A DNA stretch of 47,773 bases from a phage: the NCBI GenBank assembly GCA_036604865.1, contig GCA_036604865.1_4856.1, one strand, 5' to 3'. Below, piece by piece: positions 1 through 47,773 of the stretch; position 1 is the stretch's first letter, and every line of letters starts with the position of its first letter. The notes beneath the pieces were generated by a model. It searched no databases. It was not told where the DNA came from and was given only the letters and a program-made list of their open reading frames with translations. A program made the position numbers and the translations under genes.

Positions 1-72
1 CGTAGCTTAATTGGTTAAAGCAACCGACTCATAATCGGCTGATTGAAGGTTCAAATCCGTCCGTGTCCACCA
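1..72 (+). tRNA. 3-prime 72 nt (including CCA) of the tRNA(CAU) whose full copy lies at 47642-47718; truncated by the window start
   Basis: Bases 1-127 are identical to 47647-47773; T-loop ggttcaaatcc and acceptor 3-prime strand cgtgtcc followed by acca are visible. Confidence 0.6.
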
Positions 73-77
73 AATTA

Positions 78-107
78 AAAGCCGCTTTATGCGGCTTTAT
101 TTATTTC
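78..107. terminator. rho-independent terminator after tRNA (hairpin agccgc-tttat-gcggct followed by T-rich run); also closes minus gene 101-475
   Basis: GC stem 80-96 followed by ttatttatttc; A-rich on the 5-prime side so it can act in both directions. Confidence 0.5.
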
Positions 108-475
108 ACGACCCGCAAAAGCAACTCATGCACAGGTCTTTTCTCTTCCGTTAACATCGGCCTACCGAGCGGCGCTTGCAACTGGATGTAGTTAACGCAT
201 GAATCAATCGGATGCGTCTTAATGTATTCGATAATCTCATTGGCTTTCGCATCGACATCAGCAACGTTGTACTGCCCATGTTTGCCAACAACATACAGCG
301 AGAAGTAGAAGTCACCACCGAGTCCATTCATAACCTGCGTGCCGCCATTGGTTTGCAGGACAATAAATTGCTCATTGCCATCTCCGGTGTCATTCCATAA
401 CTGCAACTGCGAAGTCCACCCATCATACAATCCGGCATCCTGAAGATATGCATCAACCAGTTCAAGTATATTCAC
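101..475 (-). CDS. putative tail terminator / tail completion protein (assigned by position only)
   Basis: 124-aa ORF, last minus-strand gene before the major tail gene across the window junction; no motif recognised. Confidence 0.4.
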   Translation of the reverse strand: MNILELVDAYLQDAGLYDGWTSQLQLWNDTGDGNEQFIVLQTNGGTQVMNGLGGDFYFSLYVVGKHGQYNVADVDAKANEIIEYIKTHPIDSCVNYIQLQAPLGRPMLTEEKRPVHELLLRVVK

Positions 476-20329: not shown

Positions 20330-20430
20330 GATTATACTATGCGCTCGGTGTAGATTGGTCAAGTGTGGTGATGCGGATTTATCAACAATAATAAATGTTG
20401 ACGTAGATATGATGGTGATGTAGATTGTAA
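20330..20430. promoter_or_regulatory. cluster of four GTAGAT(T) motif copies including promoter TTGACG-17-TAGATT (20398-20426)
   Basis: gatgtagatta, ggtgtagattgg, gacgtagatat and gatgtagattgt lie within 100 bp; last two form a -35/-10 pair with 17-nt spacer. Confidence 0.5.
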
Positions 20431-20471
20431 TCATTGATGCAGCAATGGTGCTGCTGAAAAAAGAGGGCTGG

Positions 20472-21056
20472 ATGATGGGATGCGATATTCATTTATACAA
20501 AGAGAAAATGATTGATGGGAAATGGGTTTCCGCTGACACATGGGTTAAGGAAGATGACTGGGATGGCGCAGAATACTTTGAGGTGCCTTGGCGCGAAAGA
20601 TTCACCGATCGCAACTACAATCTCTTTGGCCTTTTGTGTGGCGGGGTTAGATCTGAGCATCCTTACTCATTCACCGAGCGTGGAATACCGTTTGATGTAT
20701 GCACAGAGATTGCAGAAAATATTAAACGCTGGGGTTGTGACGGCCATTCTCATAGCTATCTTTATCTGCATGAGTTGAAATGCATGTTGGAATTTCTTGA
20801 AACTGTCACGGTGAATGTTTCAGGAATGAAAGATAAAGACCAACTGGAAGAGCTGCGTAAGTCAATCGCAAGCGGCAACCCTGACTGGAAACTATTGTGG
20901 CCATACTGTGGATGGGCAAGCAGTGATGAACACGAAGAGTTCGACATTGATGTTCCAGCAAATGTAATGCTTGGCGATGGCCTTAAAAAAATCATCTCTG
21001 GATTTGATGGCATTGATGGCGAAAATCATCGAATCGTGTTCTGGTTCGATAACTAA
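20472..21056 (+). CDS. hypothetical protein (moron-like insert between terminase and portal genes)
   Basis: ORF track 20445-21056; ATG at 20472 after SD aaagaggg; own promoter and terminator; opposite strand to the structural genes. Confidence 0.5.
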   Translation: MMGCDIHLYKEKMIDGKWVSADTWVKEDDWDGAEYFEVPWRERFTDRNYNLFGLLCGGVRSEHPYSFTERGIPFDVCTEIAENIKRWGCDGHSHSYLYLHELKCMLEFLETVTVNVSGMKDKDQLEELRKSIASGNPDWKLLWPYCGWASSDEHEEFDIDVPANVMLGDGLKKIISGFDGIDGENHRIVFWFDN

Positions 21057-42115: not shown

Positions 42116-42116
<1 letters not shown>

Positions 42117-44491
42117 TATTCGGTTGCTCTCCTGTTGGTGTTGTAGTTTCTTGAGATGGCTTGCCCTATTGGGCCATTTTCCGAAATATCACTAACAATA
42201 GTCTCAATCGTCACGCTGCCGTCACCGTTATCTCTGGCGCTACTGCTAACCTGCGCTGAGCTGTTATTGATGACGTTATTATAAACCACAACGCCACTGC
42301 CACTTCCGGTAATGTCTTTGTTGCTGATAACTGAGCCATCGTTACCGGGAATCATATACTGGCGACCGTTGGAAGCATGGAATATTTCAGGCAAGCCATT
42401 TTCTCCCACTTCGTACATGCTTCCGGCGCTAACAGGGCCACCATTTTTACGCTTGCCAGCAATACCCATCGCCAGTGCTCCGAGAACGGCACCTACCCCA
42501 ATTGCAGCTGCCCCGCCGAATGATCCGATTGATGCTACGATTGCCGCAGGAGTCCATGCCGCCGTGGTGGTGGCTGCCGCAGCAGTGGATGCTGCTGTTG
42601 TGGTTGCCAGTCCTGCCGTTTGCGCCGCCGTTGTGGTTGCCGTTGCCGAAACCTGCGCAGTCTGTCCCATAACAGCAGATTTAACCCACTGCACACCCAT
42701 TTCGACGAAACTATTTACTAGAGAGTTGAGTACCGTAGAGCCGAGACTGCGCATGGCATCCTGAACGCTCATTGTGCCTGTCAATAATCCGGTTATGCTG
42801 TTTGATGCCGTGCTCATTGCCGAATCAAGAGCGGTGCCGAACAGTTGCGCGCCGAGGCTTTGTTGCTGCCACTCAGCCCACATGGCGTCCATTCGCTGCT
42901 GGCGATATTGCGCTTCAATTGCTGCGCGAGTCTGCTCAATCTCTGTTATTTTTTGCGGATATGCTGTGGCGTATGCGTCAAGGTCATCCATGCGCTGCTG
43001 GTATTCACTATCAATGCCAGTTGTTGGCGACGCAATGCCGCGCAATCCCTGATATGACTTTTCTACGCGCTGCTTTTCCTTCTCCGCTTCTGCCTGCTCC
43101 TTCAGTGCATTTTTCTGGTCCCAAATCTTCGCAGCGTACTCGCCAGCAAGTTTTATCTGCTCCTGAGTGGCTGCTTTACCAAGCGATTGCTGCGCGTTGA
43201 GAATGGCTTGCTCGCGGGATAGTTCGCTGGTAGATGTTGCATTGAGCATGGTTTGCTGGCGTAATTTCTCCAGCTTTTCAGCAACTGACTCAGCTTGTCG
43301 TTCTTCGGCGCTTTTGCCTTTTCCTTTGCCTTTTTTGTCTTTGGTTGGTGCTTGTGCAATCTTCAGGTGTTTTGTTGCTTCAGCCTGTTTCTTTGTCTGC
43401 TCGTAACCTTCTTTTGACGCCTTAACGAATCGCTCGACTTGATCGTTATATTGTTTTTGCTTTTCAATATCGTCATCACCAAAAAGCGCATCAACTCCCA
43501 TTTGCGCCCATGCGCCCGGGTTTAATTTCGAGATAACCGTGGCGAGAGATAAAATCTTATCGCTTGTGCTGGTTGATTTATCACCGAGGAAATCAATGTA
43601 TTTTGCCAGCTGGTCGATAATCTCTACTGCTGTTTTTGATGCGCCAGTGGCATCGTTAACGGCAACTACAAGTTTGGAGAATGAAACCTCGAGAGAGCCG
43701 ACAGCCTGATCCATTGTGCGAGGAAGCTTTTCGAACTCAGCATTGACGACGCTTGTTCTGTCCTGAATGGCATTCAGTGCATCTTCTGCCGTCAGTTTTC
43801 CGTCAAGCATTCTGGCCCGAAGTTCACCCATTGAAATGCCAAGTCCAGCCGCAATCTGGCGCGCAAGTTCAGGCATCTGTTCAAGGATTGAGTTAAATTC
43901 TTCTGCACGTACTGTGCCTGATGCGATTGACTGACCAAACTGGCGCAGTGCGTTAGCCATTTCTTCGGTTGATGACCCGCCGATTCGACCTATTTTTTGC
44001 AGGGTATCTGTAAGGTTCAGAACCTGCGCATTTGTCGCGCCAGCCTCTTTCAGTGATGACGTCAATGTTTCCCACAACTTCGTGGTGTCGCTGAGGCTTG
44101 CGCCAGTGGTTGATGCGATATTTGCCAGTGTGCTGAATGTTTCGTTCGCGGTTTTTGCGTCAGTTGACAGGCGAGCAATCCTTGCCTGAAGCTGTGTCAT
44201 GTTATCGGCAACCTCAAGGAATCTCTTTCCCCATTCGATAATCAGTGATACTGATATTGCTCCAGCAAGAGCCGTCATCTGCGTTTTTAAACCAGAAACA
44301 GAGCCAGATAGTCCGCCGAATGTTTTGCCGGTTTTCTTTGCTGCGTTATCAACGCCATTAAGTGTATCGGTTGCTGACGTTCCTGATTTAACGAATCTTC
44401 CAAATTCATCTCGCGCGCGTTGCGTGCCTTTTTTTAGCCCCTCAACATCCATCCCGACTTCATAGACAATTCCGCCGACTTCTTCAGCCAT
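42116..44491 (-). CDS. tail tape measure protein
   Basis: 791 aa, long coiled-coil-like Ala/Gln/Glu-rich regions and Ala/Thr-rich low-complexity C-terminal part; position between chaperone and minor tail genes. Confidence 0.7.
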
Positions 44492-45207
44492 TATGTATTC
44501 CTCGCTTTTTTCGCTTTGCGTTCAGCCAGTTCCTTCATGCGCTCGCGGTCTGCTTTGGCCTGATCATACTCTGCTGCGCGCTCTTCTTTTGTTAACCCTT
44601 TCGGCTCTGGATATTTATTCTTAATCATCATCTGAAACTCTGTCATGGACAAGTTTTCAGCCTCATCGCGCGTCATGTCGAAATGCGTGCGTGCTGAGAT
44701 GATGTATTGCGACGCATGAAATTCGTTTGTGGTTTTCTTGCCCTGCTCTTCCAGTCGCTCAGGCACTTTGAGTGGAGACTTGCCAATGATGCCATGCTGC
44801 ATCAGGTTGCGCGCAATAATAATAATGTCGCTCACTGGCATTACTCCAGGAACATATCTCACACCGCGCGGTGTTGGCTTCCAGCTACCAATCAACACAG
44901 AAATATCATCTTCACAGCATGACTGCATGACAATATAGGCTGCACTCAGCACATGGCGACCATACACGGGCTTACTGATAGTCTTCATAACCTGCATCTG
45001 CGCACCAAATGGCAGGTATTCTACGTGCTGCAACGGTGCAACATAATCAATGCCATTGAGTCTGGCGTACACCTCAACAATTTCCTTTGGTGTGCCAATT
45101 TCATTCATTGCGCGGAATGATGGCTTAAAGAAAAAACTCCTGTCAGAAAGCGAGATGCGCATCTCCCCGATTTCTGTTAGTGGCGTGCGATTGCTCATGT
45201 TTTGCAT
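44491..45207 (-). CDS. putative tail assembly chaperone
   Basis: 238-aa ORF immediately upstream of tape measure gene (TAATG overlap); basic C-terminus; positional inference. Confidence 0.4.
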   Translation of the reverse strand: MQNMSNRTPLTEIGEMRISLSDRSFFFKPSFRAMNEIGTPKEIVEVYARLNGIDYVAPLQHVEYLPFGAQMQVMKTISKPVYGRHVLSAAYIVMQSCCEDDISVLIGSWKPTPRGVRYVPGVMPVSDIIIIARNLMQHGIIGKSPLKVPERLEEQGKKTTNEFHASQYIISARTHFDMTRDEAENLSMTEFQMMIKNKYPEPKGLTKEERAAEYDQAKADRERMKELAERKAKKARNT

Positions 45208-45247
45208 CCTGAATTTGACTGATGTTGATTATATCATCTCAGTGGTG

Positions 45248-45276
45248 TTGACACCTGCGAGGTGGTGATGTAGATT
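45248..45276 (+). promoter_or_regulatory. sigma70-type promoter TTGACA-17-TAGATT
   Basis: Consensus -35 ttgaca at 45248-45253, 17-nt spacer ending gtgatg, -10 tagatt at 45271-45276; 35 nt upstream of gene 45312. Confidence 0.6.
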
Positions 45277-45311
45277 CAAGTCATCGAAACGAGTGATGAA
45301 TGAGGTGAGTT

Positions 45312-45506
45312 ATGGATGTTGTTATTTTGTTGTTTTTTGTTGGATTAGTGATATTTGCTTATCTTCTCCCATCATTTGTGGCATTGCAAAGAAAGCACAC
45401 AAACACGACAGCAATCTGTGTACTGAATATTCTTGTCGGGTGGAGCTTTATTGGGTGGGTTGCAGCACTTGTCTGGGCATTAGTTAACAGTGGCGACAAA
45501 AAATGA
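45312..45506 (+). CDS. superinfection immunity (Imm-like) membrane protein
   Basis: YLLPSFVALQRKHTNTTAICVLNILVGWSFIGWVAALVWAL matches the superinfection-immunity family signature (LPS..A..R.H.N...I..LN.L.GW..IGW..AL.WAL). Confidence 0.6.
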   Translation: MDVVILLFFVGLVIFAYLLPSFVALQRKHTNTTAICVLNILVGWSFIGWVAALVWALVNSGDKK

Positions 45507-45646
45507 ACGAACAAACAAAAGCCGACCTGATTTTCTATACTGAACTGTATGTTGATGCAGGTTACGATTACGAAGAAGCCGAGCAGATGGCGAAAGACTT
45601 GCTTCGTGTGATTGGCGTGATTTTTGACGAGGATAAAGTGATATGA
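45503..45646 (+). CDS. hypothetical small acidic protein (47 aa)
   Basis: Not in ORF track; ATGA overlaps with both neighbouring genes. Confidence 0.35.
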   Translation: MNEQTKADLIFYTELYVDAGYDYEEAEQMAKDLLRVIGVIFDEDKVI

Positions 45647-45996
45647 AAAATTATGAAGATATGAGTGATTCACAAATAGCGCAAAAGGTTTTCTTTTTTG
45701 TGAGTGGCAATCTTTGCCCAAAAGGAGGGTTGGCTCATATCAGTTCAGATGGCTTTTTCTTTTTTGATGACAAGAACATTAAGCGAAAGTTTGACCCATG
45801 CAATAATCCAGAGGATGCCGGTCCTATTATTATTGAAAACAGAATTGGCACCATTCCAGCACCAGATAATGGATTATGGAAAGCCGCACACAGAAAGGTT
45901 GGCAACGATGATACGCCATACCATTTTACTCAAGATAAAAATCCACTCCGCGCCGCCATGATTGTCTTCCTTAAAATGAATGAGGATAAATTATGA
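45643..45996 (+). CDS. hypothetical protein
   Basis: 117-aa ORF in the plus cassette inside the tail module. Confidence 0.5.
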   Translation: MKNYEDMSDSQIAQKVFFFVSGNLCPKGGLAHISSDGFFFFDDKNIKRKFDPCNNPEDAGPIIIENRIGTIPAPDNGLWKAAHRKVGNDDTPYHFTQDKNPLRAAMIVFLKMNEDKL

Positions 45997-46202
45997 GCCA
46001 GTTGATTAAGTGCAGTGAGAGGATGCCACCAAAAATGACAGGGGTTATTGTAGCTACAGAGTTTGGTCATCGAGGCGACTGGCGGATGAAGTGGGCTACT
46101 TATATCCCGGGGCATCCTGACGCTGATGACGGGTGGATAATTCCAGGCGCTTCGTGGAAGCCATCTCACTGGATGCCTCCGCCTAAGCCACCGCAAGAAT
46201 AA
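45993..46202 (+). CDS. DUF551-like phage protein
   Basis: CSERMPPKM...W...HWMPPPKPP resembles the DUF551 pattern (Trp-rich, C-terminal HWMPLPxPP). Confidence 0.5.
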   Translation: MSQLIKCSERMPPKMTGVIVATEFGHRGDWRMKWATYIPGHPDADDGWIIPGASWKPSHWMPPPKPPQE

Positions 46203-46203
46203 A

Positions 46204-46231
46204 ACAAAGCCCCTTTCGGGGCTTTTTCTTT
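46204..46231. terminator. bidirectional rho-independent terminator (agcccc-tttc-ggggct then T-run)
   Basis: Hairpin 46208-46223 between the plus cassette and the major tail gene end. Confidence 0.55.
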
Positions 46232-46232
46232 A

Positions 46233-46949
46233 TCAGGATACGGTGCAAGCCGTGCTGATGATAATTTCAGGGTCAGTAGATGAATCCGTTACTGTGACGG
46301 TGTACACACCAGCGGTAGGACTTGTCAGCGTTGCACCAGATTCACCACCAACAACTACGCCATCTTTGCGCCACACGTAGGTGTAAGGAGAGACGCCTCC
46401 TTCAACAGCGACAGTTAACGGACTGCCGGTGCTGCCAGTTGGCGATAAGTCGGTAGTAAATTTTAGAGGCTCAAGGCTTTCGACGGTGACGCTGTCAGAA
46501 TCGTAAACCTTAAACTCAAGGCTGCCGGTTACGATGTCGTTCGTGCCACCTTCGTAGCTGATACTGGTGATGTTGCAATACGCAGTAACGATAGTGGCGC
46601 CAGTTACCTCACGCACCCACAATGAAGGCTGGCGACGTGCTTTAAGTTCAGTGGTGTAAATCTCAACCAGGCGATGGAAGCCAAATTCATCGCTCGGGTC
46701 ATTCTTGCGGATTTCAACCTCTGCGCTGATGGTCATATCAGAGCTGGTAACGAGAGTGGAAACAAAGCCGCCAGTGGTATCAGCTTCCGACGTAGTGGTC
46801 TGCGGCGAGTAGTCAACGCCTTTACTGGTGGTTGAGCCTAAATACTTCCAGTCTCCCGCCTCTGGAACTGCGTCACCACATCCCTCAGCAAGGAACAGTC
46901 GGGTCATGCGACCGACCAGAACACCTTTATCATTTGCACAAATAGCCAT
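46233..46949 (-). CDS. major tail protein with C-terminal Ig-like domain
   Basis: 238 aa with SD ggaga; C-terminal Thr/Val/Ser-rich beta-type segment TVAVEGGVSPYTYVWRKDG...TVTVTD resembles Big_2-type Ig domains on lambda V-like proteins. Confidence 0.65.
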   Translation of the reverse strand: MAICANDKGVLVGRMTRLFLAEGCGDAVPEAGDWKYLGSTTSKGVDYSPQTTTSEADTTGGFVSTLVTSSDMTISAEVEIRKNDPSDEFGFHRLVEIYTTELKARRQPSLWVREVTGATIVTAYCNITSISYEGGTNDIVTGSLEFKVYDSDSVTVESLEPLKFTTDLSPTGSTGSPLTVAVEGGVSPYTYVWRKDGVVVGGESGATLTSPTAGVYTVTVTDSSTDPEIIISTACTVS

Positions 46950-47000
46950 TTCGATCTCCGAATTGTGTTAGCTGCTAACGTGGTGATTATATCACAGGTG

Positions 47001-47029
47001 TTGACAGTGATTATTTTGTGGTGTAGATT
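47001..47029 (+). promoter_or_regulatory. sigma70-type promoter TTGACA-17-TAGATT driving the non-coding region and tRNA
   Basis: ttgaca at 47001-47006, 17-nt spacer ending gtggtg, tagatt at 47024-47029. Confidence 0.55.
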
Positions 47030-47641
47030 GTATTTCAGATAGTTTTCGTGAGCGACTTTGCGGACTTTTTAGAAACTGACCACAAAGATAAATGCAAACG
47101 ATGATGTTGTTCTGATGGCGGCGTAACAGCCTGTAAGTCAGCAAGGTCTTCCGATTCCTTGTAAACAAATTCGGCGCAGTGGCCCGCTGTGATTAATAAT
47201 GGGCACGCAACAAGCCCAGACGATATCTGAGTGGCTTAAAAAACAGATGGGAGCCGGTGGAATCCCGGCAAGTGGGTCTCATGTACCGAATGAACACATG
47301 ATGACGCGGGGAAAGAACCGTGACAGGAGGGAAGTAGACCCCGCGAACGCAACAGGTAAGAGCATTGGCGCATATAAGTGGAACTCGAACCCATTGCGCA
47401 GGCGACACAGACGTGTGTTTCAGTGCTCTTTCCGTTGTGGTAATGCGGCTATGCGCACGCGGCAAGGTAAAAACGCACTCCATTTGAATGTTGCCTGCTG
47501 GCTTTACCGACCAGCAATCTGGAGGCACCAGAGCCACAACACTTAACATCCAGCATTATCGCAATCATATGTAGGGGTATGTATGGGTTACGGGGCTGGA
47601 TGTTAAGAAAGCACGCTGGCAATGCTTAAACCAGCACTTAT

Positions 47642-47718
47642 GGACGCGTAGCTTAATTGGTTAAAGCAACCGACTCATAATCGGCTGATTGAAGGTTCAA
47701 ATCCGTCCGTGTCCACCA
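47642..47718 (+). tRNA. tRNA with anticodon CAU (Met, or Ile if lysidine-modified), CCA encoded
   Basis: Cloverleaf: 7-bp acceptor stem with one G-U, D arm gctt/aagc, anticodon loop cuCAUaa, T loop ttcaaat, one A-G mismatch in T stem, discriminator A plus CCA. Confidence 0.75.
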
Positions 47719-47773
47719 AATTAAAAGCCGCTTTATGCGGCTTTATTTATTTCACGACCCGCAAAAGCAACTC
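47647..47773. repeat. 127-bp direct repeat of window positions 1-127 (genome closure overlap or terminal redundancy)
   Basis: Exact identity read from the sequence: cgtagcttaattggttaaagc...cgcaaaagcaactc at both ends. Confidence 0.9.
47724..47753. terminator. rho-independent terminator after the tRNA (same element as 78-107)
   Basis: Identical sequence to 78-107 within the terminal repeat. Confidence 0.5.

What the first reader, a model, noticed from the sequence alone, without database searches (positions are those of the whole stretch)
45248..46231. Self-contained plus-strand cassette inside the tail operon encoding a superinfection-immunity-like membrane protein
Between the major tail gene and the tail chaperone/tape measure genes sits a four-gene cassette on the opposite strand with its own consensus promoter (45248-45276) and terminator (46204-46231). 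Its first gene (45312-45506) matches the superinfection immunity membrane protein signature. The others are a 47-aa acidic protein, a 117-aa protein and a DUF551-like protein. A host-protecting exclusion module in a phage that otherwise looks virulent is notable, and the partner genes are uncharacterised.
Basis: partly seen in the sequence, partly recalled or inferred. Interest (0 to 1): 0.6.

Follow-up and report, generated by a model that had tools for sequence, protein, structure and literature searches.

The report
T4 Imm-like gene in accessory operon
A small four-gene operon sits on the opposite strand between two tail genes of a virulent Salmonella/E. coli siphophage, and its first gene is a true relative of phage T4's superinfection-immunity protein; the same cassette is already annotated in dozens of closely related phages, so it is real but ordinary.

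Summary
Four start/stop-overlapping plus-strand genes (45312-46202) lie between the minus-strand DUF6246 gene and the major tail gene. They have a sigma-70-type promoter (45248-45276) and a bidirectional terminator (46206-46225). Both are conserved in about 36 relatives, with invariant promoter hexamers and a variable spacer.

- **Gene 1** is a real homologue of T4 Imm: PF14373 at 65.9 bits, 36% identity to T4 Imm, a two-helix hairpin, and pN/pS 0.09.
- **The other three** are an acidic 47-aa protein confined to this clade, a NinX/DUF2591 protein and a DUF551 protein. All are of unknown function.

The window is a complete genome about 91% identical to Skatevirus/Deseoctovirus-like phages (Bas81, C1, Sf11), where the cassette is already annotated as "superinfection immunity".

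The claimed significance is overstated. T4 is itself virulent, and the family occurs in 1745 phage records, many from lytic groups. The genes are not an obligate module either: Imm is missing in 9 of 38 cassette-bearing relatives, whereas the 47-aa gene is always present.

Exclusion of incoming phage DNA at the inner membrane is inferred from homology only. Interest is low.

Separately, an unannotated structured RNA with a tmRNA-tag-like reading frame (47036-47215) deserves its own look.

The parts
45227..45236 (-). Extended -10 promoter-like element TGATATAATC, upstream of the DUF6246 (tail-chaperone position) gene and back-to-back with the cassette promoter
   Evidence: Exact match, one of three in the genome; another lies upstream of the major tail gene at 46985-46994. 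It is invariant in close relatives and reads TGGTATAAT in the divergent clade. Function is inferred, not shown.
45248..45276 (+). Sigma-70-type promoter of the cassette (TTGACA, 17 nt, TAGATT)
   Evidence: The extended motif GTGTTGACA-N17-TAGATT occurs 5 times in the genome against 0.09 expected. The hexamers are conserved and the spacer varies across about 36 relatives.
45302..45308 (+). Shine-Dalgarno sequence GAGGTGA, ending 3 nt before the imm-like start codon
   Evidence: Read directly from the sequence; conserved in relatives.
45312..45506 (+). imm-like gene: a 64-aa two-helix membrane protein, homologue of T4 Imm
   Evidence: PF14373 at 65.9 bits. phrog_1039 'immunity to superinfection', E 5.8e-24. 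36% identity over 53 aa to T4 Imm, E 6e-12. Two hydrophobic segments. AlphaFold helices 2-27 and 32-63, pLDDT 76. pN/pS 0.09 over 28 alleles.
45503..45646 (+). 47-aa acidic protein (P47), restricted to this clade; the only cassette gene present in every cassette-bearing relative
   Evidence: phrog_17424. Present in 38 of 38 cassettes. pN/pS 0.06. Only 8 clusters among 1.84 billion representative proteins. pI 4.05.
45643..45996 (+). NinX/DUF2591-family protein, 117 aa, function unknown
45993..46202 (+). DUF551-domain protein, 69 aa, function unknown
   Evidence: PF04448 at 56.9 bits. Present in 35 of 38 cassettes, mostly at only 30-41% identity, which indicates allele replacement.
46206..46225 (.). 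Bidirectional intrinsic terminator (AAAGCCCC-TTTC-GGGGCTTT, with T-runs on both strands), shared with the convergent major tail gene
   Evidence: both strands. Conserved in relatives, with a compensatory stem change in the divergent clade.

Best explanation
This is a moron-like accessory operon of a virulent Skatevirus/Deseoctovirus-like siphophage. It lies on the opposite strand between the major tail gene and the DUF6246/tape-measure genes.

**Likely mechanism**
1. Host sigma-70 RNA polymerase starts at the near-consensus promoter 45248-45276.
2. It transcribes four translationally coupled genes.
3. It stops at the bidirectional terminator shared with the convergent major tail gene.

The first product is a homologue of T4 Imm: a 64-aa hairpin of two hydrophobic helices. 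[quoted passage not shown] That would protect the ongoing infection from competitors.

The other three products are soluble accessory proteins of unknown function: the clade-restricted acidic P47, a NinX-family protein and a DUF551 protein. They share the transcript but are not obligate partners of Imm.

**Shown here:** gene structure, homology to T4 Imm, conserved signals, purifying selection, clade distribution.

**Inferred:** transcription from this promoter, membrane insertion, and exclusion activity and its targets.
For: - ORFs and signals are at the stated coordinates.
- PF14373 scores 65.9 bits against a 27.9 cut-off, and T4 Imm itself scores 58.2 bits on the same model. Direct BLASTP to T4 Imm gives 36% identity over 53 aa, E 6e-12.
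- Two hydrophobic stretches are separated by a short basic loop, QRKH. The AlphaFold model is a helix-turn-helix hairpin.
- Promoter hexamers and terminator are conserved while the spacer varies.
- Purifying selection: pN/pS 0.09 for imm and 0.06 for P47.
- The cassette is present in all 38 genomes whose DUF6246 gene is at least 66% identical. It is absent where that gene is 33-47% identical and the major tail gene sits directly next to it, the signature of an inserted moron.
- Cassette GC is 42.8%, against 47-52% in the flanking tail genes.
- The T4 record and a review describe Imm as blocking DNA injection.
- A precedent exists in HK97 gp15, a small inner-membrane exclusion protein encoded by a moron in the tail operon next to the tape-measure gene.
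- Lifestyle: a RefSeq relative has no annotated integrase or repressor. None was found among 10 mid-size ORFs of the window. The P47 gene is never seen on contigs above 200 kb and is mostly on contigs of 20-50 kb.
Against: - I found no experiment on this protein or any close orthologue. Exclusion has been shown only for T4 Imm, in a myovirus whose DNA delivery differs from that of a siphovirus.
- Imm is absent from 9 of 38 cassette-bearing relatives, so it is dispensable.
- The one transcriptome of a phage carrying a family member (Kagunavirus K1B4) places that gene in the late class, and its authors link it to lysis. T4 imm is regarded as an early gene (my own knowledge, not checked here).
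- This protein lacks T4 Imm's roughly 10 N-terminal and 20 C-terminal extra residues.
- The promoter is predicted, not mapped.
Confidence: 0.6

Rival explanations
1. The Imm-like protein is a small inner-membrane protein with a role other than exclusion. Candidates are tuning lysis timing or holin activity, altering membrane potential, or interfering with a membrane-bound host defence. On this view the 'superinfection immunity' label is annotation carried over from T4.
For: Only T4 Imm has been characterised in a family that spans 1745 phage records of very different morphology and hosts. The K1B4 transcriptome places a family member among late genes, and its authors associate it with lysis. 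There is a weak match to a 2TM-TIR defence model over the transmembrane region only (E 0.0027). The protein is little more than the 42-residue family core plus one extra helix.
Against: The K1B4 statement is not backed by an experiment in that paper; it cites the T4 immunity paper. This genome group has a separate canonical lysis cluster of holin, endolysin and spanin elsewhere. The conserved core shared with T4 Imm (LP.F.A, GW..IGW, W) argues for a shared molecular activity.
Confidence: 0.2
2. The cassette is mainly a host-takeover or anti-defence accessory region whose essential component is the universally conserved P47. Imm is an optional passenger in a variable slot for envelope proteins.
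For: P47 is in 38 of 38 cassettes at 91-100% identity within the close clade and is retained at 50-53% identity in the divergent clade, which lacks Imm. It has the lowest pN/pS, 0.06. The slot upstream of P47 holds different envelope-targeted proteins in different relatives: Imm, a 97-aa protein with a signal peptide, a 91-aa protein with a C-terminal membrane anchor, or pairs of these. NinX and DUF551 are typical accessory genes of the lambdoid nin and exo-xis regions.
Against: P47 has no detectable relatives outside this clade and no domain match, so no function can be assigned. No cassette protein matches PADLOC models beyond the weak hit above. This view is compatible with Imm still acting in exclusion.
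Confidence: 0.15
3. The cassette is a decaying, non-functional remnant of horizontally acquired DNA.
For: Gene content varies among relatives, and frameshifted variants occur in databases (P0044, P0049 and P0054).
Against: Imm and P47 are under strong purifying selection. The reading frames are intact and coupled. The promoter, ribosome-binding site and terminator are conserved.
Confidence: 0.03

Closest known systems
Phage T4 Imm (immunity to superinfection; Pfam PF14373)
   Same: Homologous: both match PF14373 over the whole model (65.9 and 58.2 bits), with 36% identity over 53 residues. Both are short proteins with two hydrophobic helices separated by a short basic loop. Both are encoded by a virulent phage.
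   Different: This protein has 64 aa against 83 and lacks T4 Imm's N- and C-terminal extensions. It belongs to a siphovirus with a tape-measure-based DNA delivery system. It sits between tail genes rather than among early DNA-metabolism genes. This genome has no Spackle homologue next to it. Function is untested.
HK97 gp15 moron (YebO-like superinfection exclusion protein)
   Same: A small inner-membrane protein encoded by a self-contained moron within the tail gene cluster, next to the chaperone and tape-measure genes. It blocks genome entry without masking the receptor, and its specificity depends on the incoming phage's tail. This is the best positional and conceptual analogue.
   Different: Pfam detects no similarity: the window protein matches only PF14373 and, weakly, DUF3302. 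gp15 is expressed from a prophage of a temperate phage and lies between the chaperone and the tape measure. Here the phage is virulent, the cassette lies between the major tail gene and the chaperone-position gene, and it is on the opposite strand.
Other exclusion proteins of enterobacterial phages: phi80/N15 Cor and P22 SieA; T5 Llp (my own knowledge)
   Same: Phage-encoded envelope proteins that prevent secondary infection. T5 is virulent and also encodes one.
   Different: Cor and Llp are outer-membrane lipoproteins that block the FhuA receptor. SieA is a larger inner-membrane protein. None belongs to PF14373.
Accessory genes of the lambdoid nin and exo-xis regions (NinX/DUF2591; DUF551, as in Ea22 variant 2 and YfdS)
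   Same: Genes 3 and 4 belong to these Pfam families. DNA-level matches reach Stx phages, Jerseyvirus-like phages and NinX genes.
   Different: Here they sit in a tail-region cassette of a virulent phage. Their function is unknown everywhere.

Membership tests
T4 Imm family (Pfam PF14373 Imm_superinfect) | Sequence match to the family model above the curated threshold | tested here: met
   65.9 bits against a 27.9 cut-off, covering model positions 2-42 of 42. T4 Imm scores 58.2 bits on the same model.
T4 Imm family (Pfam PF14373 Imm_superinfect) | Direct similarity to the characterised member, T4 Imm | tested here: met
   BLASTP gives 36% identity and 51% positives over 53 residues with no gaps, E 6e-12.
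T4 Imm family (Pfam PF14373 Imm_superinfect) | Two hydrophobic membrane-spanning helices forming a hairpin | tested here: met
   Hydropathy peaks at residues about 1-25 and 32-58, separated by QRKHTNTT. AlphaFold helices 2-27 and 32-63, pLDDT 76. This is prediction only.
T4 Imm family (Pfam PF14373 Imm_superinfect) | Location in the inner membrane | not testable with these tools
   Needs fractionation or reporter fusions.
T4 Imm family (Pfam PF14373 Imm_superinfect) | Blocks DNA entry of superinfecting phage | not testable with these tools
   Known only for T4. No experiment on this orthologue group turned up in the literature searches.
T4 Imm family (Pfam PF14373 Imm_superinfect) | Expression early in infection | tested here: inconclusive
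   The conserved sigma-70-type promoter allows host-polymerase transcription from the start of infection, but the same promoter type also occurs elsewhere in the genome. A family member in Kagunavirus K1B4 was classed as late.
Moron (Hendrix/Juhala definition) | Own promoter and terminator flanking the inserted gene or genes | tested here: met
Moron (Hendrix/Juhala definition) | Lies between two genes that are adjacent in related phages | tested here: met
   In relatives whose DUF6246 gene is 33-47% identical, the gap between the major tail gene and that gene is 37-309 nt. The larger values probably reflect truncated alignments.
Moron (Hendrix/Juhala definition) | Nucleotide composition differs from the surrounding genes | tested here: inconclusive
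   GC is 42.8% against 47-52% in the flanks and 46.3% genome-wide, which is only the 13th percentile of 900-nt windows. The DUF551 gene is 52.4%.
Moron (Hendrix/Juhala definition) | Expressed from a repressed prophage to benefit the lysogen | tested here: not met
   There is no sign of lysogeny. A relative has no annotated integrase or repressor, none was found in 10 ORFs scanned, and the cassette is never seen on chromosome-sized contigs. 'Moron-like' therefore describes the architecture only.
HK97 gp15 / YebO family | Sequence similarity to gp15/YebO | tested here: not met
   The Pfam scan of the 64-aa protein returned only PF14373 and a sub-threshold DUF3302 match. gp15 itself was not compared directly.
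NinX (PF10765 / DUF2591) | Match above the curated threshold | tested here: met
   49.3 bits against a 22.6 cut-off. 800 homologues, named NinX or DUF2591 where a source names them.
DUF551 (PF04448) | Match above the curated threshold | tested here: met
   56.9 bits against a 22 cut-off, covering model positions 3-68 of 68.

The most novel reading that the evidence does not exclude
The position just upstream of P47 may be a swap site for envelope-targeted exclusion proteins in this siphovirus clade. Relatives carry Imm, a 97-aa protein with a signal peptide, a 91-aa protein with a C-terminal membrane anchor, or pairs of these. Imm plus the secreted 97-aa protein could then form a two-layer system of inner membrane plus periplasm, analogous to T4 Imm plus Spackle but evolved independently for tape-measure-mediated DNA entry. 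The invariant acidic P47 would be a required cofactor or regulator.
Probability: 0.12. Interest if true: 0.5.

Novelty: already known. Interest (0 to 1): 0.2.

Why it matters
If the Imm-like protein does exclude incoming phages, it would show that the T4 Imm mechanism also works against, or on behalf of, siphoviruses that deliver DNA through a tape-measure channel. Natural imm-plus and imm-minus relatives, which exist in the BASEL collection and in GenBank, would make a convenient test set.

It also bears on phage cocktails. Members of this clade might exclude one another or other therapeutic phages. As a genome-annotation finding, however, it adds nothing to what is already in public records.

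Tried and rejected
**Searches that added nothing**
- Sequence search of the PDB with three of the four proteins (all but P47): no relatives.
- PADLOC defence models: only a weak 2TM-TIR hit on the transmembrane region.
- Word-based and exhaustive profile searches for P47: it is confined to this clade, with 8 clusters among 1.84 billion representatives. No function can be inferred.
- Literature searches for PF14373 and for Kagunavirus or Skatevirus superinfection found no functional test. The 1989 T4 imm paper is not held in the library.

**Ideas tested and dropped**
- The 97-aa secreted protein of relatives is not a Spackle homologue: no similarity by BLASTP or Pfam.
- A temperate or prophage origin was considered and rejected on a relative's annotation, a Pfam scan of 10 ORFs and the contig-size distribution.
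- The overlapping alternative ORF 45293-45487 is a frame artefact. The Pfam match and the conservation lie in the 45312 frame.

**Wasted or negative steps on the tmRNA-like side lead**
- Rfam gives only sub-threshold tmRNA hits.
- ARAGORN gives no tmRNA call.

Full report
**What the window is.** The window is a complete phage genome closed on itself: bases 1-127 are identical to 47647-47773. It is about 89-92% identical at the DNA level to Escherichia phages TanjaMuster_Bas81, C1, swi2 and Sa179lw, Shigella phage Sf11, and Salmonella phages KFS-SE2, VSt472 and Akira. RefSeq classifies C1 as Deseoctovirus. The BASEL paper places Bas77-81 in a cluster formed mainly by genus Skatevirus, small O-antigen-dependent siphoviruses of 46-48 kb. 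RefSeq relative C1 has no annotated integrase or repressor, and a Pfam scan of ten mid-size ORFs of the window found none. The cassette's most conserved gene was indexed in 1545 blocks of assemblies: 702 have a longest contig of 20-50 kb, only 9 reach 50-200 kb, and none is longer. The phage therefore behaves as a non-integrating, virulent phage.

**The observation.** The four plus-strand ORFs are 45312-45506, 45503-45646, 45643-45996 and 45993-46202. Each downstream start overlaps the preceding stop in an ATGA, which suggests translational coupling. The consensus scan finds TTGACA-17-TAGATT at 45248-45276, the joint best site in the region, and an 8-bp GC-rich hairpin at 46206-46225 with T-runs on both strands. 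The flanking genes are a major tail protein (46233-46949, minus; phrog_853), a DUF6246 protein at the position of a tail assembly chaperone (44491-45207, minus) and the tape measure (42116-44491, minus).

**Are the signals more than chance?** Promoter-like sites as a class are not enriched here (9 found, 6.9 expected), so I relied on comparison. I fetched 55 IMG/VR loci through the DUF6246 protein and extracted the region between that gene and the major tail gene. Across about 36 distinct sequences the two hexamers are essentially invariant while the spacer changes: CCTGCGAGGTGG, CCTGTGAGG, CCTGCTAGG, CCTGCCGGGCTG. Two other cassette types keep TTGACA-17-TAGATT with an unrelated spacer. The terminator is equally conserved, and in the divergent clade the stem changes on both sides (GCCCC/GGGGC to CCCCC/GGGGG). 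This pattern is what functional signals should show.

The extended motif GTGTTGACA-N17-TAGATT occurs five times in the genome against 0.09 expected, so it is a phage promoter type rather than a cassette-specific one.

**Correction on the "operon".** The reverse strand of the same intergenic region carries a perfect extended -10 element, TGATATAAT, 20 nt upstream of the DUF6246 start codon. The same decamer, in the same back-to-back arrangement with a plus-strand TTGACA-17-TAGATT, lies upstream of the major tail gene. The two tail genes therefore probably have their own promoters. The cassette sits between two transcription units and shares a two-way terminator with one of them.

**Identity of the genes.**
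- *Gene 1* matches Pfam PF14373 (Imm_superinfect) at 65.9 bits over the whole model, and PHROG 1039 'immunity to superinfection'. I fetched authentic T4 imm from NC_000866. T4 Imm scores 58.2 bits on the same model and aligns directly with the window protein at 36% identity over 53 residues without gaps, E 6e-12. Both proteins have two long hydrophobic stretches separated by a short basic loop. An AlphaFold model built on 19 homologues is a helical hairpin with helices 2-27 and 32-63, pLDDT 76. Across 28 distinct alleles, pN/pS is 0.09. Membership of the T4 Imm family is therefore established at the sequence level. Localisation and activity are not.
- *Gene 2 (P47)* is acidic (pI 4.05) and matches only PHROG 17424, of unknown function. 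A word-based search and an exhaustive profile search of 1.84 billion representative proteins find it only in this clade, 10 and 8 clusters respectively. Its pN/pS is 0.06.
- *Gene 3* is a NinX/DUF2591 protein. A confident model (pLDDT 86.7) resembles only two uncharacterised structural-genomics proteins, 4pup and 1r7l.
- *Gene 4* is a DUF551 domain protein. DUF551 is described as a portable domain of unknown function found in Ea22 variants and YfdS.
- None has a relative in the PDB by sequence (P47 was not searched), and none has a convincing PADLOC match.

**Distribution.** Every genome whose DUF6246 gene is at least 66% identical to the window's (38 including the window) carries an opposite-strand cassette at this site. 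In more distant relatives (33-47% identity) the major tail gene lies directly next to the DUF6246 gene. The cassette is therefore an insertion specific to this clade, a moron in the architectural sense. Its GC content is modestly lower than that of its flanks, 42.8% against 47-52%.

Gene content varies:

| Gene | Cassettes carrying it (of 38) |
|---|---|
| P47 | 38 |
| DUF551 | 35, mostly only 30-41% identical to the window's (alleles are swapped) |
| Imm | 29 |
| 97-aa protein with an N-terminal signal peptide | 22 |
| NinX | 16 |
| 91-aa protein with a C-terminal hydrophobic anchor | 2 |

The slot upstream of P47 always holds one or two envelope-directed proteins. The window has the simplest version, Imm alone. 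The 97-aa secreted protein has the same length and predicted compartment as T4 Spackle but no detectable similarity to it.

**Mechanism.** The best-supported account runs as follows. The host polymerase transcribes the operon. The Imm homologue inserts into the inner membrane. As in T4, where the record describes superinfecting DNA being left in the periplasm to be degraded, it prevents genomes of later-arriving phages from crossing the membrane.

The closest positional analogue is the HK97 gp15 moron. [quoted passage not shown] By analogy, the target here could be membrane insertion of the incoming tape measure. That step is pure inference.

Several points count against over-confidence:
- No experiment exists for this orthologue group.
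- Imm is dispensable in nature (9 of 38 lack it).
- The protein lacks T4 Imm's terminal extensions.
- The only transcriptome of a phage with a family member, Kagunavirus K1B4, classed that gene as late.

**Comparison with what is known, and novelty.** tblastn finds the family in 1745 phage records: T-even phages, Jerseyvirus-like and N4-like phages, Acinetobacter phages and mycobacteriophages. Many of these groups are virulent, as T4 is. An exclusion gene in a virulent phage is therefore the norm for this family.

The very same cassette is annotated in GenBank and RefSeq relatives as 'superinfection immunity protein' or 'immunity to superinfection', together with DUF2591 and DUF551 proteins. 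One record, ASO78B, even annotates both promoters and the terminator.

The finding is real, correctly read and already known at the level of annotation. What this analysis adds:
- the direct link to T4 Imm;
- comparative support for the signals;
- the paired back-to-back promoters;
- the clade-specific insertion;
- the observation that P47, not Imm, is the constant component.

**Side observation that may be worth more than the finding.** The twin plus-strand promoter at 47001-47029 drives about 600 nt with no credible ORF, then tRNA-Met (47642-47718) and a terminator. The first roughly 180 nt (47036-47215) are conserved at the DNA level in 685 phage records from unrelated groups: Gamaleyavirus (N4-like), Kuttervirus, Mooglevirus, and Klebsiella and Erwinia phages. 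The same stretch is found in 656 of 5426 complete E. coli genomes. There it lies in lambdoid prophages between the antiterminator and the holin, and on plasmids of about 90-100 kb next to tRNA-Asn. In the rows listed it is almost never annotated.

It contains a 10-codon frame, GCA AAC GAT GAT GTT GTT CTG ATG GCG GCG TAA, which reads ANDDVVLMAA. This closely resembles the E. coli tmRNA tag ANDENYALAA (quoted from my own knowledge). Among 145 pattern matches, some of them chance hits in AT-rich contigs, 123 carry such a 10-codon frame, with variants such as ANDDLMLMAA, ANEEMYLAVA, ANDEQFLAVA, ANDNTFLAVA and ANDSEVLMAA.

RNAalifold on 72 sequences supports a hairpin with three covarying pairs, and a helix whose loop pairs with sequence after an invariant UGAUUAAUAA. 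That is an H-type pseudoknot whose second stem covaries completely between phage groups.

ARAGORN calls no tmRNA in any of the 145 matched stretches, and Rfam gives only sub-threshold tmRNA hits. I could not identify a tRNA-like domain or a CCA end. Whether this is a divergent or two-piece phage tmRNA, or a mimic of only the messenger part of tmRNA, remains open.

Noticed in passing
window 47036-47215 (+), downstream of the promoter at 47001-47029 and upstream of tRNA-Met 47642-47718: An unannotated, structured, widely conserved RNA-like element with a tmRNA-tag-like 10-codon frame (47094-47126, ANDDVVLMAA then stop). Other phages carry variants: ANDDLMLMAA, ANEEMYLAVA, ANDEQFLAVA, ANDNTFLAVA, ANDSEVLMAA. 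It has a covarying hairpin and an H-type pseudoknot around an invariant UGAUUAAUAA. It occurs in 685 phage records from unrelated groups (N4-like, Kuttervirus, Mooglevirus, Klebsiella and Erwinia phages) and in 656 of 5426 E. coli genomes, in lambdoid prophages between Q and the holin and on plasmids of about 90-100 kb next to tRNA-Asn. ARAGORN and Rfam do not call it a tmRNA, and no tRNA-like domain was found. It may be a divergent or partial phage tmRNA.
   Followed up: partly
window 45221-45280 and 46975-47033: A back-to-back promoter module occurs twice. It pairs a minus-strand extended -10 (TGATATAATC) with a plus-strand GTGTTGACA-N17-TAGATT. One copy lies upstream of the DUF6246/tape-measure genes and the imm cassette, the other upstream of the major tail gene and the tmRNA-like/tRNA unit. 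Both are conserved in relatives. This implies that the tail genes are transcribed from separate sigma-70-type promoters.
   Followed up: partly
window 47350-47438 (+): A long hairpin closed by the complementary motifs CAACAGGTAAGAGCATTG and CAGTGCTCTTTCCGTTG. In prophage-like contigs the same two motifs flank the tmRNA-like element on both sides and also close variable inserts of about 50 nt, some containing a T-arm-like GGTTCGAATCC. These may be processing stems or cassette junctions of phage tRNA clusters.
   Followed up: partly
window 1-127 and 47647-47773: The two ends of the window are identical (the 3' part of tRNA-Met plus its terminator). The window is therefore a circularly closed complete genome of 47,646 bp with a 127-nt assembly overlap. 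The truncated 'second' tRNA at 1-69 is the same gene.
   Followed up: yes
relatives: L002 2368-2661 (+); cassettes of L026 and L038: Relatives carry further envelope-directed genes in the slot upstream of P47. One is a 97-aa protein with a signal peptide, present in 22 of 38 cassettes with or without Imm. It has the same length as T4 Spackle but no detectable similarity. The other is a 91-aa protein with a C-terminal hydrophobic anchor and a weak tailspike N-terminal domain match (E 0.0015).
   Followed up: partly
window 20395-21056 (+): A second plus-strand island among minus-strand genes. A promoter of the same type (ATGTTGACG-N17-TAGATT, 20395-20426) precedes a 203-aa ORF (20445-21056) with no Pfam match, lying between minus-strand ORFs next to the terminase region. 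This may be another moron-like insertion.
   Followed up: no
window 45293-45487 (+): An out-of-frame 64-aa ORF overlaps the imm gene. It recurs in 26 relatives only because it shadows the conserved gene. One database protein (P0044) is a frameshift chimera of the two frames. It is an annotation trap.
   Followed up: yes
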